Assembly (NCBI RefSeq): GCF_964204865.1
Contig: NC_135264.1
Coordinates: 15,128,001 to 15,192,000, forward strand
Direction: 5' to 3'
Source of the DNA: Styela clava
Lineage: Eukaryota
DNA: 64,000 bases
This document shows positions 9,453-64,000 of the stretch, piece after piece. Below the pieces are notes generated by a model. The model did no database searches. It worked only from the letters and a program-made list of their open reading frames with translations, and was not told the origin of the DNA. How positions within the stretch are numbered: the first letter of the stretch is position 1; each line of letters begins with the position of its first letter. Made by a program: the position numbers and the translations under genes.

Positions 9453-19827
<10,375 letters not shown>

Positions 19828-37800: not shown

Positions 37801-40800
37801 GCGATTTTCTTCTGACTGCCTCGTGATAAAGTTTTAAATCATGACCGGACAAGCAATTTGTAGAATTCTCTATGATATTAGCGCTTCCGTGAGTTTCTCC
37901 TGGCGCATTTTTAAGTTGTATGCAATGATTGGCGCTTAGCATGACGCCCCGACTGTATGAACAATAAGCTATTTGCTTTAACGGATATTACCGACTGAAA
38001 TGATAAAAAGCTAGTTAACAATACAGGATAGCCAAGCACTCTCTTCATATTCGCTGGTCGTCTCAGCTAGTTATAACACTCGTCAACAATGACATTAGTG
38101 ATGGAACAATGTCTCAAGTTTATTTTTCTGTGTTTTTTTCATGACGAAACAACACCAAATAGAACGCGGGCCACAGATAATGATGCTGCGGGACACATGT
38201 GCCCAACCTCACTAAAATTGACTATTTTATGTTCAGGCATATGAAGAGAGCATCACAGTATCAGTTGAAGAATACAAACTGCCAAAGTTCAAAGTTGAAA
38301 TTAAAACTGATCAGAGTTTCTTGCACCCTGGGTCCATGAAACTTACCGGAGAGGTTGAAGCTTTGTAAGTAAAGTTCTTCAAAATTGAATTTAAATTACA
38401 GTTGATATGTCTCGTTTGAAGTCAATTTTAAATTTAAACATGACGCGACTCGAAAAATGCGACTCGAATTCGGCTATTATATGTACAGGGTTTCAAGTTA
38501 TGGAATATATTGGTTTTAACAGGCAATCCTCGGATTCAAATTCGAAAGTCTACCATTTTGTGTATTTAAATATAATTAAATACATATCAGGCCACTACTA
38601 TTAAGCTTTCTACACTTTAAATATCATTGTTTTGTCAAGACTTTTGATTTGTTTCATTCATCCTCATAATTTAATGCACACTTCCGGGATTCCAAGGGTG
38701 CACTGAGCTTCCACAAGCCTCTCGAATGTTTTATTGGGGTTCAACCAAAAACATTGAAAAACACTGCATTACAATGATGTAGTAGTACCTTGAATGACTG
38801 GTCGTCTCAGCTCAAGACAATTTTCGATTTAAAGATGATTCGTCTCTAGAAAGACGACTTGACCCAGGTTATGACATACATACGCGATGGTTGAATACTT
38901 GGGTGTCGATCGCTAAATTGGATTATTTAATTCGAAAATTCCTAAGTTATTCTGTACCAAACGTACCCATTTAAGCAAGCGTGTGCTATTTCACAGATTC
39001 ACCTTTGGACAACCAGTGAAAGGAAGCGGCAGAATTGAATTCACAATTGATAGATGGGTACCACGCGGACAAAAACCCAACATGATTCTGGAGAAATTTG
39101 CGGTAAGAAACATTGAATTTTCTCGTGTGGATTTTTTTATTCTCTTTTTTAAAACCCAATCCATAACAATCAGATCAAATGACTATTCGGCATAATTGTT
39201 GAGAACTATCTTGCAATTGTTGTATGAATAAGACTTAAAGATAAAATTTGTCCAAGTCATCCCATTCTGATCAAACATTTTTGTGACGAAAACAGCATGA
39301 CCTCAAGATGATGCTATAGATGGGGCAATTCATTTATTTTTTAAAATCAAAGAATTTCACCATATATTATTTTCAAGTAACAATATTCCTATTTCGCAGG
39401 ATTTCGACGGAACAGCTTCATTCTCCGTCAATGCATCTGATATTGAAAAAATCTTGAAATGGAATCCCAAATATGGTTCGAGTCCGCTCAAAATAACCGC
39501 GTTCGTCAAGGACAAAAATACAGGAGACGAATTCAATGGTGAGTATATATTATTGACTGCATTTCCATGACCCTTGACTCCAGGAAAATATCTTCCTGTA
39601 CTTTGCTATTACGAAGTTTCTGATGCATATTAATGAGTGTTTTCATGAGTTCGACCCAAACTAGTTACACTCTCATTACCAGCATTTTAATTTATAATAG
39701 TTAACCACTTGGCAAGTACTGGTATAATAAGCTTATGAGAAGACAAAAAGACCATTGAATTATTTGATCTGTACATAAATTTCAGAAACACAACTAAAAA
39801 CTGACAAATAGCATAACAAAAGATTTTGTGTATGCATGTTTTCTCTAATCGCCTGTTGAGAATATTCAGTCAAAGCTTTTTATGTTTTTTAAGCTTTTTA
39901 AGTTTAAGCTCCAAAAAATTAGGAAGTCTTACTTTGGCTTCGGAGTGTTTGGAATGATGCCTTCGACCAATATCAACAGAAGCGCGCCAAACCCCGACTT
40001 TGCAGCCTTAAACGTTGGCCTATGCTAGGAGTGTGCGACGTTTATTGTTGGTGGGTCATGTAACCAACTTCAGACATCTATAGCTGGGCCACTCAAAAGA
40101 ATGTAGCTATTGGTATGAATGCAAAACAACGAGCGATTTAATGCAGTGACAAGAGCAAAAAACATGTATTTCTACCCACTTGAGCGCTTTATTAAACATG
40201 AACAGTCTGATAAGGTAAATATGCTTGATGGGAAAAATTTGAGTGTTGAAAAGGGCACACTTAAGGGCTTGATGGGCCGAGATGTGAGCCGTGGGCCGTC
40301 TGTTGCACACCACTGGCCTATAGACTATTTCTTATGTGAAGCGTTGCTTTGGGTGAAGTAGAAAATGCTTGTAATTTATGTTACTATTATCATTAAACAG
40401 CTACAACGTCTGTTGACCTTCACAGTAAGCGAATGAAAGTTGAAGCGATTGCAAAACCTGAATTCATCAAAGCTGGACTTCCATACGTGGCATACGTGAG
40501 TTGTTTTTTATTTTCATTATCTTGGCAAAATCGCCGATAGCTGGGGGTTTCAACCTCATTCATCTTAAATTCTATCGATGCCTAAGGATATATATAGATA
40601 ATAAGAATTGAGAAACCCTGATCTAGGGGTGTTCGCGTGGCGCTGACGTCAAACAAACGTAAAGATGAAGTCAAATAAACATCAAATCAGGAGCTTCAAG
40701 TCTTTTTTTCATTTTTAGTTAAAAGTATCAGAACAAGATGGAACTCTACTTTCTGAAGATGACAGAGAGAACCTGGATATGATTATTAATGTTGAATATA

Positions 40801-43800
40801 CGTAAGTCAACTTAATTTGTGAGTACTCCTGTTGTGTGTGTACCAGGTTGGGGTTAGGGCATAATTTCATCCCAATTTTCCTTATTTTAGTTCTATTACA
40901 AATTCGGGGACTAGCCAAGTGACTTCCGTAGTATTTTTTGGACCTGAAATTATGGCCTAACCCTAACCTGGTACACATACTACGTTCCGGTGTCCGTCAA
41001 CTAGGTTCACATACTTCGGAAGTACCAAAATACGGGTTCACTGACTACCGCAACGTTCCAAAAACGATGTGAGATAATCCACTCACTTCAAGTTAATATA
41101 AAAACAATATATACCAAACATGGCTCAATACGACCCGCTGGCCAAATCCGGCCCGCTAGGTATTCAATCTGGCCCGCCTGATGCTGCCACAACCAAACTG
41201 AAACCAACTTTTGAAGTTTTAGTTAAAAATAGCTAAAGGAATTTGTTGATATTGCGGTTAAATTAAGTTTAGCTACGAAGTTTACTGATTTCCACAGTTG
41301 TATTTGTAACACTGTAAACATTGTTCATATAATGCAACTCGTTACGTCATACTTACATGGCCCGCCAGTTTTGATGGGCAAAATTTTTGGCTCACATTCT
41401 AAGACCGTGCCCACTCCTGATATATACTCTAACATTCTTAATTCATGATCACAGTTATCGATGGAACTGGCGACCATTCGGAGGAAATTCAGATGGAAGA
41501 CGAGAACCAAAAAAAATGTCGGTTCCCTTACAAGTAGGAAAGGACGGGATTGCTATGTTCAAGATCACAGCCGATGCGAGCGACTTCCAACGAGTAAACT
41601 TCCAGGTGGGTTTAAATTTATAAGTCTCCTCTAATTTGGCAACTCAAATACTTCTATTGGGCGTAGCATAACAATTTTTGTACATGTAAATCCTAACCCC
41701 CACCTGACTATTCCATCCAAAATGACGTCACTACGACGTCACAATCACGTCATAGAGAAGACCCACATGACAAGACTAGACTGAGTAATATCAGAAAGGA
41801 AAATGCTATTATATAGACTTTAACGCATATTTGCACCATCAAAGTCAGACGAATCGTTACAGAAAGATATTCGTGTTGTGTGCAGCAAGATCTTTGACTC
41901 ACTTAGGATAGTTATATCCAATCTTGCTACAACACTCTTGCATTATATCCATACAGATCCACCGGCACAAAAGCATAAAAGAAGGATAAATAGAAAATGT
42001 CTCATAATAACCCAATCGATACAATTACATCGTTTTATTAATTTGCATATCTCGATTTGAAAAAAATATTTGATTTTATTCTGAGATCATCAGGTTATCA
42101 AAAATGCCCAGCCATACTTCCAACTATTTATTTCTGAGAGGCTATAAATGGTGTCATTTCTAGGACTGGGTGTTTTCGAATATGTGATGATTTCAGAATC
42201 GAATCGAATATTTTTTTCGACTCGAACACTTGTGAGATTTAAAATTGTATAAAATTTTCTTATTGTATTAGATCCTGCGGAAACATAAATTACTGAAAAC
42301 ATAGAATACATCACTCAGGCAGATTGCTGAGCGTTCACACACAATAAAAAAAAAACTTATTCATAAAAAATCACTACAGAAAAGAGTCATATATCAGAAT
42401 TGCGTTGAAAAAATATGGCTTTAATAGAAAAAAATTTAGAAATTTACCTCGACCATTGGCGGAAAGAAAAATCAAGATGGTGGCGATTCGAAATTTTGCT
42501 CTGAACCAATTCGAATAATTTACTAATCGATTCGATTTGAATATTCGATTCTAAATGCCCAGTTCACACAACAAACTTTGCCTTCAGGTCAAAATCCTCT
42601 CTTACCCAAACAAAGACGAATACTGGACAAGTTGGGGAGCGGAACCGTTCAAATCGCCGTCAAATACATTCATCCAAGTTTCTACTGATGATACTACATT
42701 GACCGTAGGCGACAAAGCCAGCTTGACTATTTACACCACAGAAGAGGCGGACAGTTATAGATTTACGGTAAGAATAGTTTATAACTTAATTGCTCTAGAA
42801 TTGAGTGTTTCTCAACGTTTTTTCTTTCTTTTACCGCTTTTGTTTTACAAAAATTATTTTGTTGCGTTCCCGTTATTTCACAACAATTTTTCGGTTTTAT
42901 TTCAAGCCATGGGAACACTTGTATTTTGCGCATGTGAACATTTAAATGCTTACGTTTAATGATGAAACATTTATCTATTGTTATAACAGATCCTAGCCAG
43001 AGGAAAACTGCTCAAGCAAGAGCTTTACACTCCAGCAGAATACGTGAAAGAAACCGACAGTTTTAAATTCAGTTACATGTTTGACGTCACCAAAGATATG
43101 TCACCAAATGTTTACGTCATTGTATCATTCATTCGTTCCGACGGTGAAATTGTTGCTGACAGCGTGAAAATTACAGTCCAAGCTACTCTCGAAAACAAGG
43201 TAGGTATAGGCTAAAGTGGGATAGACTCGAGTTACTTTTTCTCTAGCTCTTTAGCGTTTTAGTGGTCGCCCGTAGTGAACTTGCTACGAGCGAATATACT
43301 CAAAAAAACTGTTCAAAAGAAATGACCTGACTCGAACTAAAATACCCACCAGAGAGACTCGATTTCAGCAAAAAAACTCTCGGCCCGACGTACAACTTGC
43401 GTTGCGTTACTAACAATTGAAAAGGTTTTTCTAAATTGTAAAAGAACATAAGGACAAGGTCCTACCTCAAAAAAATGAATTTAACCGTTAATTTTTATAC
43501 GACGATTATACGCATTTCGTTCTGAAAAAGACTCTACACAGCCAACTTTACGTTTCGGCATTGCACACTCAATTTCTCACATGCAGATTTTGAGAATAGT
43601 GTCCCCGTTCTTCAAGACAGATGACCAAGCCAAGCACTGACAGTCTCAAAATACTAATATTTCTAATTTTTAATTCAGGTTACCATGACAACAAGTACTG
43701 CTAAAACCGACGCAGGGATGCCAGTTAGTATTACAGTTAACGCAGCAGCAGGATCTTTCGTAGGTCTGAGAGCAATTGATCAAAGTGTTTTACTGCTCAA

Positions 43801-46800
43801 ATCTGGCAACGATATCACCAAAGACAAGGTAAGAAACTTTTATCTTCTACATGGGGGTGTTTCAGCACCTTGATAAGGTTCTGTACAAAAGAGAAGGAAC
43901 CTAATAAGTGGTGGGATTCAAATTTTTTGTCAGCCGGTTCCTTCACAAAAGTTATATTTTTCAGCCGGTTCTGTTAAAAACAGAACATTGACAGTAACTA
44001 GTAATGCTAACCGGTTCGCTGATCTCATAAAAATCAGTGAGACCGTTTCATAGATCCGTTGCGAACTGACTGAATCCCATCACTGGACCTAATCCAGACC
44101 CAATGTAACCCCAGATCCACAAATATACAAACTTGTTCTATCTTTTTAGATTTTCCAAGACTTGGATAAATATGGAGCTTCAAGCGGTTCCATTGGCTGG
44201 GGCGGCGGATGGGGCAGATGGTGGTGGCCATACCCCATAGGAGGTGCTGATGTTAGTGAAGTATTTGATGTAAGTATCTCCCTACGACTAATCAATCATT
44301 TTTTATGTGGCGCTCATTTGGACCTCTCGCTCCGACCAAGGCCTGGGCAAAAACAGTCTTCCAATTCTCCATTTAAAACTACATTCGTATAATTAGAAAT
44401 TTATGAAAAATGTTTTAGACATGAACCCACACAAAAGTAGGAGAACAGATATCAAAAAACACGTTCCGTCAGTAATAAAATTCCATGCGCTTAGAATATC
44501 AAAATTTGCGCGTTCATCTGTGTGGTATTCTCTTCCAGTTACGAAACTCAATTGAAACAAACAGATTTCTTAGTAATCTTCATTCTCTATTACTTAATCT
44601 TTGTAGTCATAGTCAAGTTTATTTTTTTCCAACCAGCAAAATAATAAATATTCTTCAGTTAAAATACTTGTGTTACCATTTACAATTGTCAACTTTTACG
44701 TAAAATATCACCACTTCATTTTTGTATAAGCTTTGTATAATGGTTTTGAGCCCTAAAAAAACAGTGCACTAAAATCAGTTTTCAAAGTTGCCAGAACCGT
44801 GTCCGACTCCATGGGAGTGCAGTGTCAGTATTGGTGTGAGACATTATTTTCATCTATCTAAATTGCTGTTTTCTTTTATTCCAGAACTCCGGAATCCTTG
44901 TTCTTACCGATGCTCTCGTCTATTCAAGCAAGCCGGACTGTGAGTTTGGTTTATTATTTTTTTGCCTTTGCAGTCAAATTCATTCGCCACAAATTACACT
45001 TTCGCGCCAAAACGGGTACACGAACTTCTAAATTCGGGCCTCGAAAAATTGTTTTTAAAGGGAAGAATTATTATATATTTGGTTTTATCGAAAAATTTCT
45101 TGACATAGAATTATTTGAAAATTTCAACTATTGTATGTAAAAGTTCCGCATTAGGGAATCGCCCTAGACATTCAAACACATGCGAAAATGTCTCTTTTTA
45201 TTCAAAATTTCAATTTCCTAAAATCGAATTTGACTGCGAAGGCGGCTTCTTGCATCAAATAATAATATCAGTTAGTGTACTCCATAAGAGACTGGTACAA
45301 ACGTGTTTGGAGTTATTTGTCTGATATTATAGTTTGGTGCAAAAAAAATGTGTTTATCCTTCGTCATGGCCCCTCACAATAGCGTGACTTGGCGGAGGAT
45401 AATCTGTGCAATTTTAGCGAAGTTAGACGAGGTTAAGTCAAATGTTTCAGCTTTAGTTTAAGTGTTAGTGTTCTGTACTAATGTTTTGGAGTTTGAGATT
45501 GGTTAAATCTGTCTCCTATTTACGAGACATTGAAAAACGAACTAAATTTAACAATTCAACCCGACCCGACTATGGGGTAAAAGAATAGATTCCTGCATTA
45601 GTTTCAATCCGTAATAGCAAAATTTTGGCTGTAGAATCTATTTATAAGTTTCTGTCAGAAATTTCAATCTCATGTCTTGAAGTCTGGTTTAAAATTTGTA
45701 AATATAACAAATTTGAAGCTGCGAACCTATTACCAGTAAAGATCGCTAAATTTAGACTTCATAGCTCTGTATTTCCTTACCATCAGATCGAACTTATGCT
45801 CTTACAAGTATAGTCAGTTATTGAATGTACAGACTAGTTCAGATATGTTGGATAAAAGTGCTACCAGGAACTTAAATCACAAACTTTTAATGCAATGATA
45901 CAAATGTAACCATTTTAGTTAGTATGTATAATCTGGTACGTTTACGTCATGATACTAACACTTATAACACACGATCAGATGATTTTGGTTGTCCGTTTTG
46001 TGGAGGCGGAATTGGATTCGGTGGCGGAGCAGGGGGAGGTAGACCAATCAGACTCATGTCTTTTTCTGCCAAACCTGCTCCCTTGAGACGCCAGATGGCG
46101 CAATCGTCTTCCGTGCCAAAAACGAGGAGCTACTTTCCAGAAAGTTGGATCTGGGCTAAAGAAGAGATAGGGTTAGGAAAAAATTACGGTTGGAATAACG
46201 AGAATGCAAAGAAGTTTATTAACCACAGAGTGTTTAATAAAGCATGGTTATTGAAAACTCGTCACGATAACGTCACAAATTTGTTACGTCATCAGATAAC
46301 CGAATACCACAAATTAATTTCCATAACTAATAAGGTGTGAATCAAAAGTTCGACACATCAGCTTCTTTGAAGCATAATTGACGTCATAACCCTGGTGACG
46401 TCATACAAATATTTCACAGATTCTGGTAGCTTTTTTCGACCGTTTCGGCCTCTTGGAGCGAGAAATTTGGTAATGGCCATGCCGAGAGCCCTGATGGGGT
46501 TTGCGAAACCCGCGCCAATGGCACGGCAGTATTCGAAGGCAAAGAGTTCCGCGCCAAAGACCCGCAGTTATTTTCCTGAGTCCTGGATATGGGCAGATGA
46601 ATATATAGGGTTAGAGACTGGTGTTTTAGATATTGGTCATTGGGAATGCAATTTTCGTGGTTTGAGGTGCTCTGAATCATGAAAACTAATGAAAATCATA
46701 TTTGCATCTTGATAATTCGCACGTATTGGAAGTTGTTAGTTAAATTTTCAAAGCATTTCCAATTATTCAACACTATTTAATTTAAAATGAAGACCCTAGC

Positions 46801-49800
46801 AGAAATATACATATATAAAACCTGATAAATTAATTTCTGAAAAGGCTCAGAACCTTGCCTTAGAAAACTTATAAATATTATGTTATGGAATTCCGATTTT
46901 ATCAGGGAATAGAGGGATACTTCGGAGAATTGCTGGTGAACCCATCGCGGAGGATAGAGGAGGTGCAAAAGCATGGGCCTTATTTTACACCAGAAAATTG
47001 AAAGCTGAAATTGCGGCGCAAAAACTCCGAAGTTATTTCCCAGAAACTTGGATATGGAGTCAGAGTTATATAGGGTTAGAAAGTCATATCTCAAATGCAT
47101 TGCTTGAATTTTTAAACTAAAAATCTTAGGAGATGTTTGTGCCATAGCTTTGCTTGCTACATTGCAAAAATCTGGCCCATGCATGTCGCCACCGTCTTGT
47201 ACATAAATATCCAAGTCTCGAAAGAATTACTCCAAAAATAAATCTACGATATACCGACAAAACTCTAATGTCATTATCGCCAAGCATCCAATCTTGACAC
47301 TTTGAATTAATTAGTATGGTAAATGCAGATATGCAGAGTTTGCAAACAGCCCGATAACATTTAAAATTGAAAACACATAAATTCACCTAAACGAAAAATA
47401 TCCGTACCGGCGAACGGAAACAGCCGCCCAATCTTAAACGTTGAGCTGGCTCGATATTTCGTAAGTTCTATACTTAGGTTTTTCTTTTACCTCTCAATGC
47501 ATTCCATATATTTGAGTTAGTTTTGTTCGATGAACTAAGTGAAAAAAACTACAAAGATGTAAATTGTGAATCTCCCCTTCTCCAATCGGACGATATTTCT
47601 CATTTCGATGTTTCGATCCGTCAATCATCTCAAATCTCAAGAATGTTCACTCTTTGCACGAGGATAGCTCACCCTTTAATAATTAAATCACCGGCCATTT
47701 TGCCTTCAAAACATATTACTATCCGACCCCAAAGTCATGTTACAAGACTAATGATATTTGGATCGGCAGTGGAGAGTATATGTTATTCATTTTAGCGATT
47801 TGGCCAAAAGAAGAAACTATTTGTATAGAAATCGAAGGAGAAAAAGTGTGCCATACTTTTGCCTTACCACAACCCATAATGTTATCGGCATCAGCACCGG
47901 CAACAGCTGTACTGAGATCACCAGAAGGAACAAATAATGTCAAAGTCACAAGATTTTTTTTCCCTGAATCATGGATCTGGACGGATAGTATTTCAGGGTA
48001 CGGGCTCTCAAAAGTTGCCTCCGCCTCTTCAAAAAGCGTTGAAATACCACGCTCTGTCCTGCTTTGTCGGATCATATATGTTTCACAACTATATGATAAA
48101 AATGTGGCATGAGTTATGTTGGAAGTTCGTCGTAAGTTTGACACAAACAACTGGTCGACTTGCCTCATACCTGTCTGATAACTGGACAAGGAAACATGCT
48201 TCTTCGTATATTTAAGTCGTCTTATCTGTTTTCCTCCATCCCCCAACTCACCCCCTGATAAATATACAGAATAATACTTTTGCAGACAAATGTTCACAAC
48301 TCACTAAAATGAGAATCAGTACATTGTCGGCTGGCTCGTCGTTAAAATCATCGAATTGTTAGTTGCCAGAATAATCGCATTTTAAAGAAAAGCACCAATG
48401 CTGCTATTTTACACTTGGTTGATTTTCGATTTTGCGTAAACCACGCCTTATTCAATGAAGTATACTTGCAATTCGACTCACTGGTACTGGTAGACAAGAC
48501 ATCCGACCGAAAACGTCATCTTACATTTGTACTACATCTACCAGTTGGAACTATAGTCTACTCCATCTGATTCGATATTATTCTAACGATTGAAACAACC
48601 CAACAAAGAAGCGAATGGCGGTTAAGAATTGGGATGCGAGTATTCTGACCTGTCATGCGCCAGTGCTGATAATTCTTAGATGTATAATTTATTTCGAAAA
48701 CTCCATGATGTAAACTAATTCAAATGCAGAATTCTGGAAAGCGAGAAAAACCTAGTTAAACGAGACTTAGGCCAGAAATAAACAAACAAAAACTCGCGAA
48801 CGTCTTGATAGTTGAAAACTCCATAATGTAAACTAATTTAAATGGAGAATTCTGGAAAGCGAGAAAAACCTAGTTAAACGAGACTTAGGCCAGAAATAAA
48901 CCACCAAAAAGCCGCGAACGTCTTGATAGTAGACGCCCAATATAGCAGTTATATTACATGCCTTCAATATGAAGTTAGATGACAGGTAGAGCAAATAGCT
49001 TTTGGAAACTTCATTACGGTATCGCTTCCGAACTCGAACTGTTTAGCTGCGACGCGACACTTGCGATACCCCATATCACTGTATAGTATTTGTTTTGAGG
49101 GGTTAGTGACACCTAGAGTTAGAATATACTATATATTCTTTATTCGAGAGACGACGCATGAGCGATAGCATTTCAGTTTACTGTATATGTTGACTTGCAT
49201 CACTTCTCAAATAATCTTTACTTCAGTCATTCAACCGATATTTTCGTGTCGTCGTAAACGAGGACTCCTACGAAATAAGAGATGTGCTATGTTCGATCGA
49301 AAAGATATGCTTAGACCAGCAGCGCCAGGAATGGCTGCTAACTCCGGGCTGCGATTCAAGGGAGATTCGAAACAAACATCGAAAGCTAGAACGAATTTTC
49401 CCGAGTCCTGGATCTGGACGGATAGTACCTTAGGGTACGGTTTGAGCTAAAATAGATGAATGTTACACAAGCTGGTATTATAGGTGAACCCCGCATGTTT
49501 TCAAACTCATACTTCAATACCCAGCCATGGTATGTGTGATGAACTGGATAAGCTTTACGGTCTTTCCAAAAACATAACAGCTCTCTCTTTCCGGTCTGAA
49601 GCCTACATCGGAACATGGTGGGGAAATTCTCAAATCGTGTTTGCACGAGATTTTTTACAGAAACACTTCACGCACACACGACCAGGCACTGCATTCACTC
49701 CACACAGCAATTGATTTTTTTCAAATAAACAAATTGGTTACGTATTTGCTAGTTAGACGTTGAGTACACTTGCTACTCTCTGTTAAAGATTCTTTCCGTG

Positions 49801-52800
49801 TGCGTAAGAACTGCGAATATCTTGGTTTTGCAATGAAAGATTAGCATTGTTTCGCCGCTGCGTCTGAAACGCTGAGCTGGTACGCTATTTTGGTAATTTT
49901 CACTCTATTTTATTGTTTCAATCTTACATTATCTTCGAATTAGTTTTACCCAGCTAACTAAGTATAAAACGCTGAAGAATCTTTAACTTTGAGACGACAG
50001 CCTACTTTAATCGAATGATATTTCCAATTTTTCAAAAACTATCACTAGGGGGGGACACAGGGTGCCGCATGACTGAAGACGGATTTGAAGTCTGCGCAAT
50101 GATGATGATGCGAGGTATACAGGATGAAACGTTTATCATGAACTCTCCCCCGAAAACAAGATCTTTTTTCCCTGAGACTTGGATTTGGACCGAAGATAAA
50201 ATAGGGTTAGATCTAAATACTGCATGAAATGATTCATCATCTAACTATACTCGCCTACTTTACTTACTTGCTTGATTTAATCATTAACATTCTTCTTGTA
50301 CTTTGTGACATATGCTTCAAACAACATAAACGTAAAAGTTATTTCGAGTAATCTAAAAAAAAACACAAAACATATCAACAACTCACACACATGGACGCTG
50401 CGACACTTGAGATATCATATTTCGACAAAGTATTTATTGTGACATCACGCATTGTTATGACGTCATGTTGTACTCCTCCACGAGAAAATTTAGATACGAT
50501 AGTACAGGGTTAGGTTAGTAATATAGACATACCTGTACATTATTAGTAACATTCCGATCTTTTTTATCGCTCCAGAAGTGTGTGTACTAATATGGAGGTA
50601 ACTAATTTTGTTCGCCTATTTTTTATCCATTTGTGTAAAGGGACTGAAACATATGATCTGAAACATACAAAGCAGTGGCCTCTTTTCAGAATTTTGTATG
50701 GCGTGAAGACATGAAATATAGTTATGGAAGTTATAGTAACAATATTTCCAAATTTTTGATTTTAAGTTTTTGATCCATGCCCGCGGTGCATGCGACCATT
50801 TTTTGGCGTTCAACGTATCGTTGGCGGTCCTGCTGATGGGAACATTCGTCACAGAGTCTCTTCAGGAATAACTCCTGCAAAAGCTACATCCACTAAAACG
50901 ACGAGGAGTTATTTCCCAGAGTCGTGGATATGGGCGGATGAATATATCGGGTTAGAAACGCTTGCTTGTGGCTTCTATCGTGTGATAGAATCATCTTATG
51001 AACTTGCATGTGTATCTCTGCTTTGTCGTAAATGAATCATAAAATTTACTTTAAGTCTGATTTTGATTATTTTATATAATCTACTCTTTCTCAGCAAAAT
51101 CACGATTGCAAATTTAAACTTTCAAGTCATAGTGATTTCGTAACAGAAATGACAAATTTGAAGAAAATTACTATGCACAATAAACATAAAATTTTCATAA
51201 AATCTGATTTCGATTATTCTACTCTTTCACAGCAAAATCGCGATTGCAAATTGAAATGTACATAATGTAATAAACAATAAACCGTAATAATCATTTCTCA
51301 CATAAAATGGCGAATGCCAATAAAAAAACAAAACATCCTAAACCAGTTCTCAAACTTTCATTATCTGTGGACCCTTTTCAAAGACTCCCAACACCAGTGG
51401 TTGTTGCTTAGTTTGACAAACACCCAAATTATTTTTTGGGTTAGTTAGGTATAGGGGGCAACATTAACAGAAACTGGCCCCGGGCACCAGGAAAGTTTGA
51501 CACGTCACTGTCCAACAATTGTATAGATCTGCTCTTATTAAATGCCAATTTTTGTTTTAATAAGTTTCTATTCGTTATTTTATGCACAGTTTTGCAGACA
51601 GCACTAGTTTTTGAAATGTATTGTTATTGTGTAAGGGTATCATCATATAGATCAGTGTCTCTCAGCATTTATCTCTTGTGTCCCATCTGTAGCGTTAAAA
51701 AACCATAAGCCGGTACATGCAATTGCTGAACAGGCAATTGCTGTTGCTATTTTCGATGCATTTTTTTTTCAAATACTACGCTGACATTGTTTCTTAAAGC
51801 AAAACGCTCTTAGGTTTCCATCAACGTAGTTTATACGGAATCATTTTTCATATATCTATATGTACGTAGTCAGTGTAGTCAGAGACCATACGTCATCTCA
51901 TGGCACATCTTGTCCTGTTATGGTATATCATGTCACATTTTATTGTGACATCACGTTTTGGTATGACTTCATGTTGTACTTACTCACGAAGGGATTTAGG
52001 TACGCTATTGCAGGATTTGGTTAGTAATATAGGCATAAAAGTTTATTATTAGTAACCTTCAGATAAAAAAATTCGCAAAACAGTAGCTTTTTACAGAGCA
52101 GTAGCCGCTTTCACAGAATTTTGTTAGAAGTGAAGACAGGAGAAATGTCGTATAAGTAGTTTCGTAAGAATAATTTGAAATTTTGCTTCAAGTTTTTGAT
52201 CGATGTCCGCAGTGTATTCGTGTAAGAATCTTTGGCGGTGCTGCTAATGGGAACATTCGTCACAGAGTCTCTTCAGGAATAGTTCCTGCAAAAGCTACAT
52301 CCACTAAAACGACGAGGTGTTATTTCCCAGAGTCGTGGATTTGGGCGGATAAATATATCGGGTTAGAAACGCTTGCTTGTGGCTTCTATCGTGTGATAGA
52401 ATCATCTTATGAACTTGCATGTGTATCTCGGCTTTGTCGCAAACGAATCATAAAATTACTTTAAGTCTGATTTTGATTATTTTATATAATCTACTCTTTC
52501 ACCGCAAAATCAGGATTGCAAATTTAAACTTTCAAGTCATAGTGATTTCGTAACAAAAAAGACAAATTTGAAAAAAATCACCACGCACAATAAACAGGAA
52601 ATTTTTATAAAGTATGTGTTCCATTATTCTGCTCTTTCACAGCAAAATCACGATTGCAAACTAAATGCATATAATATATTAAAACCTGAAACAGAAATAA
52701 TCATTTTTCAGCGAAATATCGCAAATACCAACAAAAACAAAAGGGTACTCCTGAAGAAAGTATGCGCACCAAGATGTCGCGTAACCTGAAACTCAACCTG

Positions 52801-55800
52801 GTACACAACCCGAGTTCAGGTTGTGCGCCATCTTGGTGCGCATACCTCAGGAGGTCCAAAAGAAGACTTTCTAAATCTGTTTTCAAACTTTCCTGATTGG
52901 GGACCCCTTTTAAAGACTTTCAAACACTTGTATACATCTGCGCCAAGTTTCGTTTTGATAAGTTTCCATTCGTTATTTTATGCACAGTTTTGCAAAAATC
53001 TCTAGTTTTTGAAATGTATTGTTAATATGTAAAGCTATAAGTTTATAGTCATGTAAACCAATGGTTCTCAGTCTTTTAACTCTTGTGGCTCATCACTGTA
53101 TAAAGAACCTTAGGCCGACACAATGCACGTTGAGGAACACCGCTGTAAACGGTGTGGCAGCCTTTAGATTGTCAGTATTTGTACGCGTATTTTCTCGGTT
53201 AGTTTTTTAGGTGGGAGGATCATTGATAGCAAGCCAGGGAAAGTTAGTTTTCAGTAAATCGTTCAAGAATAGTGTAAAATGGAGTTGGAAAAAACGTAAG
53301 AATTTATGTCTCACTACCAATGCCACAAAACGTTTTCTGTTTTTAGTCTTTGGATCTAGCCCTTGTTGCATGAGAAGACAATTTATGCGTCGGCGACCCG
53401 GTAATGCCCGTATTGTGGGTGGAAACGATATGAATAGAAACGCTCCTCCCGCCGCAAAAGTGGGGACTTCTACCAAAACAAGAAGTTTCTTTCCCGAATC
53501 GTGGATTTGAGCGAATGAATACATGGGGTTAGGATTCTCGATGGTTGTTAGTTGTCTGCTTCTGGCTTGTCTATGCTTGTACTATTACGACAAGCAGTAA
53601 TGCTGCATGCGTTTTTTTTTCGAACAACTCAAGTTGTTTTCACATTGTAGAATATAAAATAAATACAAAAAAAACAGGAATAAAACATAATGAAACAATG
53701 TTAAATTCACTGTTATGTAAAACGTAATAAATAAGTCATAAGGTGACCCACGAAAAAATTGTTACCATGTCATTGCGGAACACATTATAGGGCAAGAGTG
53801 GAAAATTGCTTTTCTAAAGGGGCCACGCAAATATAATATACTTGGGAGGCTACTGGGAAGACGTTCAAAAATCGATATGAAGCTGTGAAGCTGTAAAAAA
53901 CATTTTTTTTGCAAATAACTGGACTCGATAATAATCGCATGTCTGCTCATTTCACTGATGTAATACAATAGGTTTTAGTTAAAATTTATAGCCATAAAAA
54001 CAGTAGTAGTAATTTAGTCGGGCACAAGAGGGCAGGATGAAACCCTTCGGTGGGCCGGATTTGGCCCGCGGGCCCCAATTTGACCATCCTTGTTTTAAAA
54101 AGAACATAACTTGTTTTTACATTTAACTATCTTCATTACGAGTCTTGTGTGCATAGAATAAACATACTGAGTTAATATATGATTCAATATATAGTCAATA
54201 TGATGCCTAAGTTTAATATAAATCTTACCTAGAAAAAGCGCGAAGCGAACTGCGACTGCATGAGTTGAGGTGGCCTAAATGCCAGGCAGGTACCTTAGTT
54301 TTAGATCAAAATAGTAAACTTGCGTTAAGGAAGTACACATGCATAAAATTCAGACAGGAAAGAAATCACTATAGGGCGTAGAACGAGAATTGTATTAGTG
54401 AAATTTGTACTTTTTTGCAATGGGTTACTTATTATTTCAAAGTTCCAATGCATCCATGGATGCTTTTCCGCCTCGGAGGCCCTGGACCAGAATCGGCAAT
54501 GGCGATGGCGGGACAGCCTGGTATGGCGGGACAGCCTGGTATGGCGGGACAGCCTGCGCCACCACCTTCCCAACCTGGACAACCTGGAGGGTCTCAGCCA
54601 ACTAAAGCTCGGAGCTACTTCCCAGAATCTTGGATTTGGACAGAGGAGCTTGTGGGGTTAGGAATTATTTTAAACATAATTGTCTTGCAACCTGGCATGT
54701 TTTAAAAATCATCATTTTATTTTTGTTCTGTGATTAGCTAAAAGTTTTATAAAATGCCACGCCTACTTTTTGAAACGCTCAACTAACCAAATTATTGCCT
54801 AACGCATTACGCAATCGGTGCTGGTGACGTAATATTACTAAATAAATCAAAAAAGGAACATGTTGTTTTGAGTCCGATTCATCAGAGAAATCGTTCTTAA
54901 AATGTTGAATCTCTTCACCGCATGTATTACATTACTGAAGAACATTTATAATTGCGATATATAATATTTAGAAATACGTGATTTGGTGGAGACTAGAAAC
55001 TTCGTTTTCGGGCCTTGTTTGAACACATTGCTTCTTTTCGAAAAATTTCATAACATTAATTAACAAACGAAGGATATATTTCACATTGTGTAACACATAG
55101 TAATCAGCGGAAAACCCCGTGCTTTAGGCACAATGTACAGACTTCTTATGATTGAACGTAGCGTTTCTTATTATTATATGCTCACGAATCTGATATCACA
55201 AAAATAGGAAATCTCTAATATGTGATGAGTCCATATATATGCCTCAAAGTAAAGAGGTAGTCTTGAGGATAGTCTTGAATACATTATAAAATATAATTGG
55301 TCCACTCAAACACAGCACATCCGGTCCATATTAACTTTAAACAGAATTTGCATGTTTTTTTTTCATTTGCGAGCAATCAAAAATCATACGTTAATAACTC
55401 ATGCCGATTTCGTTTATTTTTTATTTTTTGCTCATGGGACAAAAATACTTGACACTATTAAAAATGATCAGAAACTTTATCTAAATTACACAAAAATTCG
55501 AATATCAGAATACAATAGAGATCATTTAGAAGGTAACAAACACGTCTTAAATTCGTCTTACCAAGTAAGGCGGCTTATTTACGGGCATCGGTAATATTTT
55601 GTGTTTGACGGTAAACTAATCAAATGATTGAATATTATATATGTAATCTTATACGCAGAGTATGGTATATGTTACAAAAACAAACTGAGTTAGTTTTGAG
55701 CAAATAGGAATCTGTAACGTAAATATCAAATAACCAGAAAAAAATCATCAAAATTAGCGTATAAATTAGTTACAAACAGTAATACAGACTGAGAGTCAGA

Positions 55801-58800
55801 TGTAGAGTCTTTATATTGTTTATTTTGTTTCCTCGTTGTATAGGAATCGTTGTTTTGTAGTAACTAGTTTTTGTCTTTTTTTTATAATTTTGTTAGGTTG
55901 AGCCAAGTTAGTGAGTGATGAATAAAATTTCGCGCGCTCATATTGTTTACTCATGAATGAGTGTGTGTCAATTAGCTTGGGATAAATTCTGGTAGAGCAA
56001 CCAAAGATTATTCTGTTATGCTCTTATATTCAGCTTTTTACAGTACGATACGGTAGTATCTATATTCGAAATGTAATCATAAAGATATTTACGTATTTAT
56101 TTAATTAGATGCGAGCCGGTACGTTCAAAATATGTACAACCTTCGTAGTCGTGAGGCTTAAACTCAATACTCTATATCGCTATCTCGTGGTCAGAAAAAT
56201 ATCAGATTTTAAAATATTCTAATCTCTGACGACCTTTTCACATCTTTTCAAAGTTGGAGAATTCTATTATTACGACGGTCCAGTAGGATTGGCAGGTGTA
56301 AATTTCAGAGGGATGGCGGAGGTCGATTTTGAAATGCTTGCAGATTATTCGATGGACTTTGACATGGACGACGCTGATGGATTTGCAGGGAGTTCCCAGC
56401 AATTAGGCTCCAAAACAAGGAGTTATTTTCCAGAATCTTGGATTTGGACTGACAGTAAAACGGGGTTTGTGATCTGTGTTATTAATCAGCAAAATCGCCC
56501 GACATGCGAATGGGTGGTGTCATTGAAATAGAAATCACTGAATATTTTGGGATGTCAGAAACATGTTGTTCTATAATTTTAACATTTGGTTTGTTTATTT
56601 TGGCAAGTTGTAAATGAAGTATGCAAAAAATACTGGTAGATTCCTAAAAATGGGGTTGACTTGTTCTATTAATCTCCATACCGACATGCTGAGACCTCTG
56701 TACCACATAATAACACTCTTTTTTGACTAATTGGTGAATTAATTGATTGAAGATCACATCAAATCTTCAGTTATGATTAACCATTGAATTAACTGAAAAA
56801 TTCGATACTAATTTACCTCAAATACCACTAAGGTTGTGAATCCCAAAACAAGAACACACATGTCGTGTAGGATTACATACGCATTCTGGCATTTGTATAG
56901 AATCATTTAACAGCAGAAAAGATCACAATGTTTCGAAAGTTGAATTTGAACTCCCGTATGCGCGATCTACTTGTCGGCGGTTTGTTTTTTGGGCGTTCTT
57001 GGAATTTCATGATAGTCAGCGAACTCGTTTCTAGACCCATGACCTACATTGATTTCTCGTTGTTAGCGAGTCCTACACAAAAGAGAACCTGTTACAAGAT
57101 TTTTGAATCCCAGCACTGGTGGACTATTTGTTGATCGACAATTAGAATATATAACATAATTTCCTCATTTTGGTCTCTGACTTCATTTATTATGGTAATC
57201 TGATATATATCTGATATGGCCAAATCCTGCCAGTTCGGTAATTCAATCTGGCCCGCTCGATACTGCCGCAACCAAACTGAAAACAGATTTTGATATTTGA
57301 GCTAAAAATAGCTCAAGAATTTTATTGAGATTTCGATTAAATTTAGTTTTGTCACGAGGCTTATTGTTTTCCACTTTTCTTTTTGTAACGCTGTAACTAT
57401 TTTTCATAAAATGTATCTTTTACATCACACTCACATGGCCCGCCAGTCTTGGTGGGCAAAATTTTTGGCCCTTGATCCAAAAACTTTGCCTACCCCTGCC
57501 TATATCCATGCTCATAGTATCATATCAACAGATTATCGATCAAGGCCAAACAATACGTCCCTTTGCACGTAAATTCAGAATTGGAACCTCGCGTTCGCCC
57601 TCCTTTTTGTACAGACTAGAGATAGAAAACAGCTGAAGGTTTAGCTTAGAGAAAGATCTAGTTCTGTCCAGAATTGCAAAAATTGTACAGGTTACCACAG
57701 CACCACAGCTTTATCTAAATTTGAAAAGGAAAAGTTTATTATCTTTACCAAACTAGAAAACACACTACACGCACACATACATATGTATACAAAGTTTTCA
57801 GTAAAAAACTGAGTAAGCAACGTTTCAGGGTTATCGTAGTCTGTTATCATAACGTCTGTTTCCGACATTGAATTAATAAATTTGCCCCCTTGCAAGGATA
57901 ATTATTTATTATCATTTATCAATTTATTTGAAGACCCCTTTGGCGGATTGGAAGGAAACGGTTTTCACTTTTTCCCTTCGGTTCCCATGGCTCTTGCGAG
58001 GACGGAATCCAGAATCGTTGGATCCAATAAGCAGTCCGGAGCTTCAAAAACTCGAAGCTATTTTCCGGAGTCATGGATATGGACTGATGACCATACAGGG
58101 TTAGCTTGAAATTCGAAATACATTCTTCGCATGCAATGTGTGCTTTATATTATCGTGCATGTGCCGACTTATTTTGCACGATCCGCCTCAAAGGCCTATC
58201 GTGTCCACTAGCGCATACACCAATGCTCATCCTTTTTCTTAAATGTTGCTATGACTTACTTTGTATATCACAATTTGTAATTTGGCGTAGAATGTCGATA
58301 TTATGACTTCACACTTTTGGTATGTGACGTCCCTCTTTGGTATTATGATATCACAGTTTTGTTTTATGATGTCACGTTTTGTGATATGACGTCACGCTTT
58401 GAGTGTTCTACTTTTTGTCAGAATGTAAAAGTTATCCCAATTATTTGCTCAATGCATTTATTCTATGATTTAGTATAATACAGTATAGGTTCAGTTATAC
58501 TGGGGGAAATTATTTACCGTATATCATTACCGGTAATTATACAGGGTGTCTAAAAATTCGCCTGATTTTATAGTAATAACAATTGTAAGTTTAAATAAAT
58601 TTTATTGTATGATAAAAGAGAATTACAAGCACAATAAGAACTATTAATAAAAACATCATTTGTGTCGTGCCGACACAAATGCTAATATATCCGAAATGTG
58701 CATTTTTGCTCTGAAACGTTCATATGGATGTAAAATAGAATAGTATTTGAATCGTGACGGACGGAGAGTCACAGCCGTGCATAAATTGTTTTGAAAATAG

Positions 58801-61800
58801 TTGTATTTTGGAAACTGAGAAAAAGAAAAGATATTTGATGTATGTTTACTTCAGTAGTCAGCACTGGGGGGGAATTAGTAATGCCCATCGTAATAGTCAG
58901 GCTTATGACTTTGATAATGTTTTATGCAGCTGGCATCTTTACAGATTAGTTACAGATTAGCTTGAAAACCAACAACTAAAATTACGATCTCGCTAAATCT
59001 TTCTTGTGTTTAATAATATTTCTCTCTAGGGGGCCATGGTCGACCAATGCCAATGATGATGGCTATGAACGCTGCGCCTATGCTTAGGTCGGCAGTGCCG
59101 GTAATGAAAGGAGCCTTTCGGCAATCGTCGACTAAAGTTCGAAAGTACTTTCCTGAAACATGGATATGGGCTGAAAAGAGTTTAGGGTTTGTTTGTAGAA
59201 AAAACATGAATAGACAAATGGTCTGGTCTGGTTTAGCACGATTTTGACCTTCACATCAAATAACAGCAACGACACTGTGCTTTTGCGTAATGGTCATGCT
59301 TCAATGAATTTTAATAATAGTTGTGTAACCTAAATATAATTCAGGTTGTGAGACAAGTTGCATTCTTTTGCATGAATAGAAAAGTTTGTATCTGGGCACA
59401 AAAACAGGCTGCAAGACCTTAAATGCAATTTTACTTTTAAATCTTTTCAGGGAGACATGGACCAATAATGTTTAAAACATTGGAGTTTGCACGAATGATG
59501 TTAGGAAGTTCCTTTACCAAATCTGCACAAAGTATTGTTAAAGTTCGGAAATATTTCCCAGAAACTTGGATCTGGACAAATGACACCATAGGGTTGGTTC
59601 GAGGGTGTAGTGTGATCATGAATCATGTAATACCATTATTATTAGGGGCGTCCACCACAGATATTTCAAGGGGGGAGGTGCAAATCTGCAAATGACTTAC
59701 TTCTTTTGGGTTGGTCAGCTGGACGCCCATGGTTTGAACATCCTTAACCCAATAATCCTTATCATCCTAACTTGTCATGTTAGTGTAAATTTATCCCTGA
59801 TTACATTGAATGGTTTGGAATGTAATAAACTCATGATGGGGTTGGACCAAAAAACACGAGGGCATGCATAACGATTTTGAGTTTCAAATAATCCTATTTG
59901 CCAGTTGGTTCCGTGCTCGAGAATGCAACTTGTCAATTATCTGGACAGTAGTTGAACTAGGTGATTGCAGTTAGCTATGTACTGTGTGCAGCTGTAGTTT
60001 TGTTTTGTAGTATCATTAGAGAAATCATATCATTTGAACTTTTCCATACTCAATAATTTCATCCTCATTCATTCATTTCTGTAGTTGTATGTTAACATGT
60101 CTGATTGTAGAGTTTGTCATTACTGTATTAACATAGAAAATGTGACTTTCATCTTTCCATGTTGAAAGAAATGTACTGAGTAGTTTTTCTTTGTTTGTGA
60201 AATGCTGCCTACAATTTCAAGTTATGGTTCGAAATTAGTACAGCAGAAAAGTGTTGACGAAAAGATGAAAAGGGTAAATTGTAGTCATGCAATTTTAGAA
60301 GGTTAATATGTGTGAGTGACTGTTTTTAAAATGTTTCTTTGAGGAGAAGACATATTGTAGACTTGGCTACTAAAATTGATGTTCTTGTTTTTATTGTAAA
60401 GTTAGTGTTATATCGATCAGTTATTAAGAACCTTACTGGTAGAAAAATTTGTATGAAACATTGCTATAATGGAGTTGAGTGTTCATGTTCTCCAAACTAA
60501 AGTGGATTTGGGCATAGCAAGTTGGGCATGTCTAGAGCATAGCTTAGCCGAAATTGAATCGCATTATTTACAGATGTACACACCATGTACAGCGAGTACA
60601 GGTGTTTAAAGTGAAGTGTTCTTTTTTTTAAAGTCAACTACTTCTGGCTTGAAGAAGACGCGCAACATGTAATGTTTGCCATGGCGACAGATGATGGAGC
60701 TCCAGTCAATAAAGTATTAGTAGATCAAGGCTCAGCGTCTACCCCTTCAGTAACAAGAAGTTTTTTTCCTGAATCTTGGATTTGGACAGATAGTCAGATA
60801 GGGTGGGAATATGTGTGAAGTGTGTTATACTTTTCAAAGTTTGTCTTGTGTGTTTTGACAGTCTTCCGAACCCCACGAGTCTTTGAGTCTTGTTTCATCA
60901 TTTTTGTGATGTTACCTGGCAATTAGATATACCTCCAGTTTCCTAACCTACTGTCTACATGTCAAATCAGCAGCAGAAAAGGTCCTTCAAGTGATGTTTG
61001 CGGAATTTATAAACATTTATATAAACATCACTAATTCTAAATGTAGCTGTATAAACTATGTAATGCTCTCAAATATCCAGTTTGGTATAGCAACACTTAC
61101 ATCCATAGACATAGACTCACTAAATTCATTTTTACATTTCGTTTTAAAAAGCAATTCCATATACTTACATCTACATAAATATGATCTCAAACATTCTATT
61201 TGCTCAGGTATTTTCAGAGATTATCGCTTTCGTGTGTCACCAACTAAGGCTTAAAGTACTTGCAACCTTTTTTACAGCCATACATTCATAACAACCCTGT
61301 CTATAATATATACGCCTTAAACATTTTAAAGACAATTTTTTCTTACTAGTTAATTTAACTACTTAAATTAAATACTTGTGATCCTGCTAATAATAAAATA
61401 GCTCGGAAAAAGCTCACAATGCGATCCAAGTGTTATATTAACCTTACAGATACACAGATTTCACTGTTCAAGCAATAACCTTCGACTCTCATATTTCTCC
61501 TTCGTCATCCTTCTACTATGAAAAGCATTGGTTTAATAACGTTCGCCTAGCTTACACAATAAGTTGCGCTTACATGTTACTTACTGCAAATCTGCGCTAA
61601 ATACTACAAATCTGCGCTAAATACTGCAAATCTGCGCTAAATACTGCAAATCTGCGCTAAATACTGCAAATCTGCGCTAAATATCGCTGCTTCAAGCTCG
61701 CATATATCTTCTTCTTCCTTGTAGCTAGGCTGTAAATGAACAAAACCCTCTATCTTTGTCAGAAAAACATCTATTACTCGTTACATTCATTCCACAATTC

Positions 61801-63802: not shown

Positions 63803-64000
63803 GTGAGTTTTCCGAGCTTATAAAATCGATTTTCATCAAAGTTAAGGATATACAAATTCATTGATTTGCCAACCAAAAACAAATAAATAAAAGTACACAT
63901 ACAATAAAAAAAAGAAAAATGTTTTTTAGTAAAGACCGGATGGAGCGATAGGACCATACGATCATGAGAGTCAGTCCCCTACATTATAGAGACAGCCTAC

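What the first reader, a model, noticed from the sequence alone, without database searches (positions are those of the whole stretch)
46242..58161. (T)GCATG Rbfox-type motif just downstream of most cassette exons
Seen: GCATG occurs within ~115 nt of the donor for 10 of 15 cassettes, at 46242, 47181, 48107, 49493, 50222, 51006, 52417, 53605, 54695 and 58129/58157. It is further away for exons 13 (59370) and 14 (59862), and I saw none close to exons 2, 11 and 15. Apart from the 7/8 pair these introns are otherwise unalignable, and a given GC-containing 5-mer is expected well under once per 120 nt of this AT-rich DNA. Established: Rbfox proteins bind (U)GCAUG, downstream sites promote inclusion, and Rbfox controls mutually exclusive exons in C. 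elegans egl-15. Inference: part of the cassette-selection code.
Basis: partly seen in the sequence, partly recalled or inferred. Interest (0 to 1): 0.7.

Follow-up and report, generated by a model that had tools for sequence, protein, structure and literature searches.

The report
Rbfox motifs in immune-gene exon array
A sea-squirt immune gene picks one of 15 interchangeable exons, most of which are followed by the short word GCATG, which likely lets the splicing protein Rbfox switch on their weak splice sites and so would help decide which version of the protein is made.

Summary
The window carries an ascidian CD109/alpha-2-macroglobulin-like thioester protein gene whose variable (bait-like) region is encoded by 15 mutually exclusive cassettes. 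RNA contigs and RefSeq isoforms support single use of 10 of them. GCATG lies within 110 nt of 10 of 15 donors: 9 of 14 independent cassettes, against 0 of 35 constitutive donors of this gene and 9 of 86 donors of related genes (p 2e-6 pooled). It is not an inherited relic: fourfold sites among cassettes are saturated (26% identity). No shared RNA docking site was found. Against a simple code: the motif is not needed for inclusion (four cassettes without a near GCATG are used), one shared motif cannot choose among ten carriers, and binding is untested. Best reading: an Rbfox-type activator of weak donors that gates a subset of cassettes (0.6).

The parts
31816..64000 (+). CD109/alpha-2-macroglobulin-like thioester protein (TEP) gene, coding start; runs on beyond the window
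   Evidence: P0001 is 100% identical; spliced mapping gives 37 coding exons; Pfam MG2, MG3, A2M_BRD, A2M, TED, A2M_recep, Laminin_G_3
44885..44939 (+). Constitutive exon upstream of the array (phase-1 donor)
45979..46171 (+). Cassette 1; GCATG at 46242 (+71)
   Evidence: RefSeq isoform P0001
46420..46609 (+). Cassette 2; no near GCATG, GCACG at 46719 (+110)
   Evidence: RefSeq P0005
46906..47074 (+). Cassette 3 (acceptor predicted); GCATG at 47181 (+107)
   Evidence: no transcript support seen
47796..47997 (+). Cassette 4 (acceptor predicted); GCATG at 48107 (+110)
   Evidence: no transcript support seen
49227..49434 (+). Cassette 5; GCATG at 49493 (+59)
   Evidence: RefSeq P0008; RNA contig piece 49227-49435
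50049..50205 (+). Cassette 6; TGCATG at 50221 (GCATG +17)
   Evidence: RefSeq P0006
50767..50950 (+). Cassette 7; TGCATG at 51005 (GCATG +56); AAG acceptor
   Evidence: RNA joints on both sides; RefSeq P0007
52193..52361 (+). Cassette 8, recent copy of 7 (acceptor predicted); TGCATG at 52416
   Evidence: no transcript support seen
53347..53527 (+). Cassette 9 (acceptor predicted), in-frame stop in the WIW motif; TGCATG at 53604 (GCATG +78)
54443..54656 (+). Cassette 10; GCATG at 54695 (+39); AAG acceptor
   Evidence: RNA joints on both sides
56254..56464 (+). Cassette 11; no GCATG or GCACG within 300 nt
   Evidence: RefSeq P0009
57934..58099 (+). Cassette 12; GCATG at 58129 and 58157, GCACG at 58176
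   Evidence: RefSeq P0015, an allele-like variant
59030..59186 (+). Cassette 13; GCACG at 59236 (+50), GCATG at 59370 (+184)
   Evidence: RNA joints on both sides
59451..59592 (+). Cassette 14 (acceptor predicted); GCATG only at 59862 (+270)
   Evidence: no transcript support seen
60634..60802 (+). Cassette 15, last of the array; no near GCATG or GCACG
   Evidence: RNA joints in 4 of 5 organism-A contig sets; RefSeq P0004
61810..62341 (+).
   Evidence: only other genomic match is the paralogue
62938..63055 (+). Constitutive exon downstream of the array (phase-2 acceptor)

Best explanation
The GCATG words after the cassette donors are enriched and are likely binding sites for the ascidian Rbfox protein, which would strengthen the weak donors of a subset of the 15 mutually exclusive bait-region exons of this thioester-protein gene. 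Shown: one cassette at a time is joined between the flanking exons; every cassette is 3n+1 long, so skipping all or joining two shifts the frame; cassette donors and many acceptors are non-consensus; the motif sits 17-110 nt after the donor. Inferred: with little Rbfox the motif-free cassettes (15, 11, 14) are the default; where Rbfox is abundant, the near sites, helped by the eight-site cluster after cassette 15, let an upstream cassette donor splice to the downstream exon first. Which carrier wins must then be set by other factors or by competition, and double inclusions would be removed by nonsense-mediated decay. The motif is thus a gate on a group of cassettes, not the selector.
For: 9 of 14 vs 0 of 35 and 9 of 121 control donors; top 5-mer. 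Near-donor density 6.4/kb vs 0.8/kb deeper in the same introns and 0.6/kb elsewhere. With GCACG, the second primary Rbfox motif per bioRxiv 10.1101/840272 (passages): 11 of 14 vs 3 of 35, p 4e-6. Fourfold sites saturated, 64 of 248 identical. Donor +3 T in 12 of 15 cassettes vs 4 of 35, U1 match p 8e-6; AAG acceptors 6 of 15 vs 0 of 35. Cluster of 8 in 532 nt, Poisson p about 3e-7 after 120 windows; highest elsewhere 4. Paralogue keeps 5 of 5 alignable array sites where 41% of 5-mers are kept. Rbfox RRM exon matches RBFOX1 at E 4e-10. Other animals' arrays: 17.1 of 47 clusters vs 3 of 36 single-exon clusters (p 0.003) and 8.4 expected (p 0.002); without the dominant lineage 10 of 37 donors vs 4.9 expected, p 0.02, with CATGC 5 vs 5.5. 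Downstream (U)GCAUG enhances inclusion: PMC2777236 (passages).
Against: No binding, knockdown or tissue data. The motif does not predict use: 6 of 10 carriers vs 4 of 5 non-carriers have support; cassettes 3, 4, 8, 9 carry it with no support, and 9 has a stop. GCACG alone is not enriched (3 of 14 vs 3 of 35, p 0.22). In other animals the enrichment is about twofold, GCATG ranked only 8th among 5-mers, many donors come from one lineage in which CATGC is also raised (21 vs 15.6 of 57, p 0.08), and 'single' contigs may be cut arrays. None of the 18 metagenome loci reaching the next exon has a comparable cluster (at most 2 GCATG). One of the 3 unrelated single-bait-exon donors mapped also has a near GCATG. 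The paralogue keeps sites although only one cassette is intact, and two of them lie in 88%-identical stretches. Local folding predicts most sites no more open than their surroundings.
Confidence: 0.6

Rival explanations
1. Rbfox binds the sites but acts mainly as a repressor: each site silences the next cassette from its upstream intron (FGFR2 or egl-15 logic), and the cluster silences default use of cassette 15.
For: Every site is also upstream of the next cassette; in the 248-nt first intron the site is 178 nt from the next acceptor. GCATG within 200 nt upstream of acceptors: 5 of 14 vs 2 of 35, p 0.015. Precedents: PMC2880598 (passages), PMC3585155 (section 15).
Against: Sites track the donor (17-110 nt) while their distance to the next acceptor ranges from 178 to 1559 nt. 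No enrichment within 120 nt of acceptors (3 of 14 vs 2 of 35, p 0.13).
Confidence: 0.14
2. The CATG core is a selector that base-pairs with a docking site after cassette 15, as in Dscam-type arrays; the last cassette needs none.
For: CATG follows 13 of 14 independent cassettes, all but the last. GCATG-containing windows of the last intron top the duplex scan (best z -2.9). One strong pairing between the cassette-3 flank and 62309 (-28.9 kcal/mol).
Against: Best z is unremarkable among 522 windows. Mean best pairing to the cluster (-18.7) is exceeded by 3 of 17 control stretches. No common register in either flanking intron. CATG without the leading G is not enriched (6 of 14 vs 12 of 35).
Confidence: 0.08
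3. Another RNA-binding protein, or a wider muscle/neural-type motif set (UG-rich, YGCY), reads these flanks; GCATG is one part of it.
For: TGCTT 7 of 14 vs 4 of 35 (p 0.007) and TGTG 11 of 14 vs 12 of 35 (p 0.006) are also raised, uncorrected. Assigning them to MBNL, CELF or RBM24 is recalled knowledge.
Against: Neither survives correction over all k-mers; GCAUG is highly specific to Rbfox.
Confidence: 0.1
4. Non-functional: a word inherited through exon duplication, or chance.
For: Cassettes arose by duplication; 7 of 9 sites have AA 5-6 nt upstream (6 of 22 elsewhere), which suggests common ancestry. In other animals the flanks are clearly homologous. The 120-nt window was chosen after seeing the data.
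Against: Neutral sites are saturated (26%), so an unselected 5-mer should not survive in 9 of 14; the result holds at four window sizes; independent arrays are enriched.
Confidence: 0.08

Closest known systems
TEP bait-region exon arrays: Biomphalaria BgTEP2 (12 exons), Chlamys CfTEP (6), Drosophila Tep2 (5 isoforms); PMC7016707, passages
   Same: Tandem mutually exclusive exons encoding the variable cleavage region with a conserved C-terminal end.
   Different: Here 15 exons, in a chordate gene with a C-terminal LamG domain; no cis-regulatory motif is given in the passages read.
C. elegans unc-32 exon 7a/7b (RBFOX plus UNC-75); PMC3585155, abstract and section 15
   Same: Weak upstream exon, default last exon, UGCAUG in the intron after the last exon needed to select the upstream one.
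   Different: Two exons with genetic proof; here 15 exons, a site after most of them, no proof.
FGFR2 exons 8/9 and C. elegans egl-15 5A/5B; PMC2880598 and PMC2777236, passages
   Same: UGCAUG between or beside mutually exclusive exons with unbalanced splice sites.
   Different: There Rbfox mainly represses an acceptor, with ESRP or SUP-12; here sites hug donors.
Docking-site/selector arrays (Dscam1 and others); PMC6071210, abstract
   Same: Large array of duplicated mutually exclusive exons.
   Different: No shared complementary docking site detected here.
Ciona alpha-2-macroglobulin homologue (CAD24311.1) and Clavelina CD109-like genes
   Same: Same domain order with LamG; annotated isoforms differ only in this region (3 variants in Ciona, 4 in each of two Clavelina genes).
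   Different: Their introns were not available, so the motif could not be tested there.

Membership tests
TEP/CD109 gene with mutually exclusive bait-region exons | A2M-family domains and GCGEQ thioester motif | tested here: met
   Pfam; GCGEQ in P0001
TEP/CD109 gene with mutually exclusive bait-region exons | One variable exon per transcript | tested here: met
   Listed joints link the flanking exons to cassettes 7, 10, 13, 15 and show no cassette-to-cassette joint (one joint not shown); each of 14 RefSeq members holds one cassette. Contigs drop rare forms.
Rbfox-regulated alternative exons | (U)GCAUG enriched in the proximal downstream intron | tested here: met
Rbfox-regulated alternative exons | Rbfox protein with the conserved RRM encoded in the organism | tested here: met
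   G000:C4:16984723; two RRM exons read, first matches RBFOX1 at E 4e-10; Fox-1_C not found; whole gene not assembled
Rbfox-regulated alternative exons | Motif conserved in orthologous introns | tested here: inconclusive
   Kept 5 of 5 in the paralogue; enriched in other animals' arrays; no other ascidian intron available
Rbfox-regulated alternative exons | Rbfox binds the site and inclusion depends on site and protein | not testable with these tools
   needs CLIP, knockdown or minigene
Docking-site/selector mutually exclusive arrays | One docking site complementary to a selector beside each exon | tested here: not met
   prediction from one species only, weak pairings could be missed
Steric or U2/U12-incompatible mutually exclusive exons | Very short introns or mixed splice-site classes | tested here: not met
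   introns 248-1597 nt, all GT-AG, no U12-type donor; distant branch points not tested

The most novel reading that the evidence does not exclude
Bait-region exon arrays of thioester immune proteins across animals share a protein-based splicing grammar, weak donors plus downstream Rbfox sites, which diversifies an innate immune effector by cell type without Dscam-style RNA docking.
Probability: 0.25. Interest if true: 0.72.

Novelty: new variant of a known kind. Interest (0 to 1): 0.45.

Why it matters
TEP isoforms are reported to be tissue- and pathogen-specific (PMC7016707), but I found no paper linking them to Rbfox (0 papers for thioester-containing + Rbfox + alternative splicing; the listings showed none on this ascidian array; the library lacks most subscription journals). 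The finding names a candidate regulator and exact sites, so the choice of bait region becomes testable in an animal where embryos can be electroporated (recalled for Ciona). It would also extend Rbfox control from exon pairs to a 15-exon array.

Tried and rejected
Docking site in the first or last intron: none above controls. Hairpins hiding cassette donors: unpaired probability 0.36 vs 0.36. Sites complementary to the GGTTAG donors: fewer than in constitutive introns. Cluster as a repeat: only the paralogue matches (the search skips very common words). Rfam over 44000-64000: no match. Exonic GCATG at 46971, 50067, 50788, 53368: in coding sequence, two as Cys-Met codons, not counted. Fox-1_C Pfam search: no match. 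A second array in the genome: none in the six other regions fetched; one bait exon each in four genes, none found by my motifs in the C4, C5 and C9 stretches. Runs of organisms B and C: almost nothing laid. No run is on record as RNA; the RNA label is a guess, though the GT-AG joints show splicing. Earlier scan notes: none. No supplements were read; those of PMC7016707 (exon-intron boundary tables) may bear on the cross-species claim.
Full report
Context. The window is G000:C19:15128001-15192000. A gene starts at 31816 on the + strand. Its product is identical to P0001, labelled by NCBI 'CD109 antigen-like isoform X4 [Styela clava]', with A2M-family domains, a thioester domain and a LamG domain. 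Fifteen exons ending in FPE[S/T]WIW plus five codons and GG|GT lie between 45979 and 60802. All are 3n+1 long, between a phase-1 donor at 44939 and a phase-2 acceptor at 62938, so only one at a time keeps the frame (short of four together).

Mutual exclusion is real. Contigs from five organism-A runs, guessed to be RNA, join 44939 to cassettes 7, 10, 13 and 15 and those to 62938; no cassette-to-cassette joint is listed (one joint not shown). A contig also covers cassette 5 exactly. The 14 RefSeq members each hold one cassette: 1, 2, 5, 6, 7, 11, 12 or 15. Ten cassettes thus have support; 3, 4, 8, 9 (in-frame stop) and 14 have none seen. Cassette 15 is joined in 4 of the 5 sets, but contigs cannot rank levels. 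Ciona and Clavelina homologues have isoforms differing only in this region, so the array is old in ascidians.

The observation. Every listed position is correct. Counting 7 and 8 once, GCATG lies in +7..+120 of 9 of 14 donors. Background is 0.069 per window and it is the top 5-mer (Bonferroni p 5e-5). Controls: 0 of 35 constitutive donors of the gene (p 1e-6; windows of 60, 200, 300 nt give p 0.005, 8e-5, 1e-4); 9 of 86 donors in four other TEP genes, placed by a heuristic; pooled p 2e-6. Dinucleotide shuffles expect 2.5 of 14 (p 1.4e-4). Density is 6.4/kb near donors, 0.8/kb deeper in the array introns and 0.6/kb elsewhere. CATGC is mildly raised, largely by overlap with GCATG.

Additions. 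(a) GCACG, a rarer primary Rbfox motif (bioRxiv 10.1101/840272, passages), follows cassettes 2 (+110) and 13 (+50): GCAYG in 11 of 14 vs 3 of 35; GCACG alone is not significant. (b) Eight GCATG and no CATGC lie in 61810-62341, after cassette 15; no 550-nt stretch on either strand of the 29 other loci then held exceeded 4; the only other genomic match is the paralogue. (c) Cassette splice sites are weak: T at +3 in 12 of 15 vs 4 of 35, AAG acceptors in 6 of 15 vs 0 of 35, three of them confirmed by RNA joints. The three unrelated single-bait-exon donors mapped have A/G at +3 and A at +4, one with a near GCATG. (d) An Rbfox gene is present: an exon at G000:C4:16984723 matches the RBFOX1 RRM in 21 of 22 residues.

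Relic or selection. Fourfold-degenerate sites in the shared 3' part of 14 cassettes are 26% identical (64 of 248), i.e. saturated, so neutral words from the founding duplications should be gone; yet both the GGGTT donor and the GCATG persist. An inverted paralogue beginning near window position 1950 has about 79% intron identity and a collapsed array: cassette 1 deleted, 2 and 15 broken, 6 intact. It keeps 5 of 5 alignable array GCATG where 41% of 5-mers are kept; outside the array 2 of 4 GCATG and 4 of 9 CATGC are kept. By my arithmetic that is p about 0.01, weakened by locally higher identity and by the loss of choice in that gene.

Independent arrays. Of 208 unique donors with 114 nt of flank, 137 lie on contigs with two or more cassettes. 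After clustering similar flanks: GCATG in 12.5 of 39 array clusters vs 3 of 36 single clusters, 6.4 expected, p 0.0075, but only 8th among 5-mers; with stop-containing hits dropped and clustering on 114 nt, 17.1 of 47 vs 3 of 36 (p 0.003), 8.4 expected (p 0.002), CATGC 10.9 vs 8.7. Array donors match U1 less well than singles (3.9 vs 4.4 of 6). Leaving out the dominant lineage (loci hand-picked by peptide signature): 10 of 37 vs 4.9 expected, p 0.02. The hosts are unnamed, relatedness is only roughly controlled, and no downstream cluster was seen in the 18 loci that reach the next exon.

Rival tests. A Dscam-type docking site was sought in both flanking introns: best z -2.9 of 522 windows, no common register, and pairing to the cluster beaten by 3 of 17 control stretches. 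Donor-hiding hairpins and donor-complementary sites were not enriched. Introns of 248-1597 nt with GT-AG ends argue against simple steric or U12 exclusion.

Mechanism. Established: downstream (U)GCAUG enhances and upstream represses (PMC2777236, passages); in unc-32 a weak upstream exon is selected over the default last exon by RBFOX plus a partner, while in egl-15 RBFOX represses an acceptor (PMC3585155, abstract and section 15); FGFR2 uses unbalanced splice sites (PMC2880598, passages). Inferred: Rbfox lifts the weak donors of carrier cassettes so that one splices to the downstream exon, motif-free cassettes serve as default, and frame-shifted products are degraded. Limits: use does not follow the motif (6 of 10 vs 4 of 5, p 0.6), and a shared site cannot choose among carriers.

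Verdict. A real, probably selected motif in a known kind of immune-gene exon array (BgTEP2, CfTEP, Tep2; PMC7016707, passages). It works like an Rbfox-regulated exon set; membership awaits binding and perturbation data. I found no print link between TEP arrays and Rbfox (listings). New variant of a known kind; interest 0.45.

Noticed in passing
window 1952 down to G000:C19:15088000 (- strand; L001-L004): Inverted paralogue of the TEP gene whose cassette array has collapsed to one intact exon (orthologue of cassette 6); an insertion moved its TGCATG from +17 to about +260.
   Followed up: partly
window 53347-53527: Cassette 9 has an in-frame stop in the conserved WIW motif yet keeps its donor and TGCATG: pseudo-exon, poison exon or allele.
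   Followed up: no
window 15600-19830 (- strand): Sulfatase gene exons between the two TEP paralogues.
   Followed up: partly
window 47175-47192 and 62309-62330: Single strong predicted pairing (-28.9 kcal/mol) between the cassette-3 flank and the GCATG cluster; control maxima reached -27.
   Followed up: partly
window 44939-54523: One contig joins 44939 to 54523 (GT..GT ends) inside the repeated AGQPGM codons of cassette 10; probably a repeat-length allele or mis-laying.
   Followed up: no
L059, L099, L118, L156, L163-L165 and others: Unnamed animal contigs hold bait-exon arrays of up to 9 cassettes with a shared non-consensus GTACC donor.
   Followed up: partly
G000:C17:7895001-7945000 (L013-L017): Another divergent pair of close TEP paralogues, each with a single bait exon.
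   Followed up: partly
P0002: RefSeq protein of the paralogue type that runs through the frame-shifted cassette-15 orthologue and ends early.
   Followed up: no
window 48705-48920 and 61585-61682: A local duplication of about 118 nt in the intron after cassette 4 and a short tandem repeat in the last intron.
   Followed up: no
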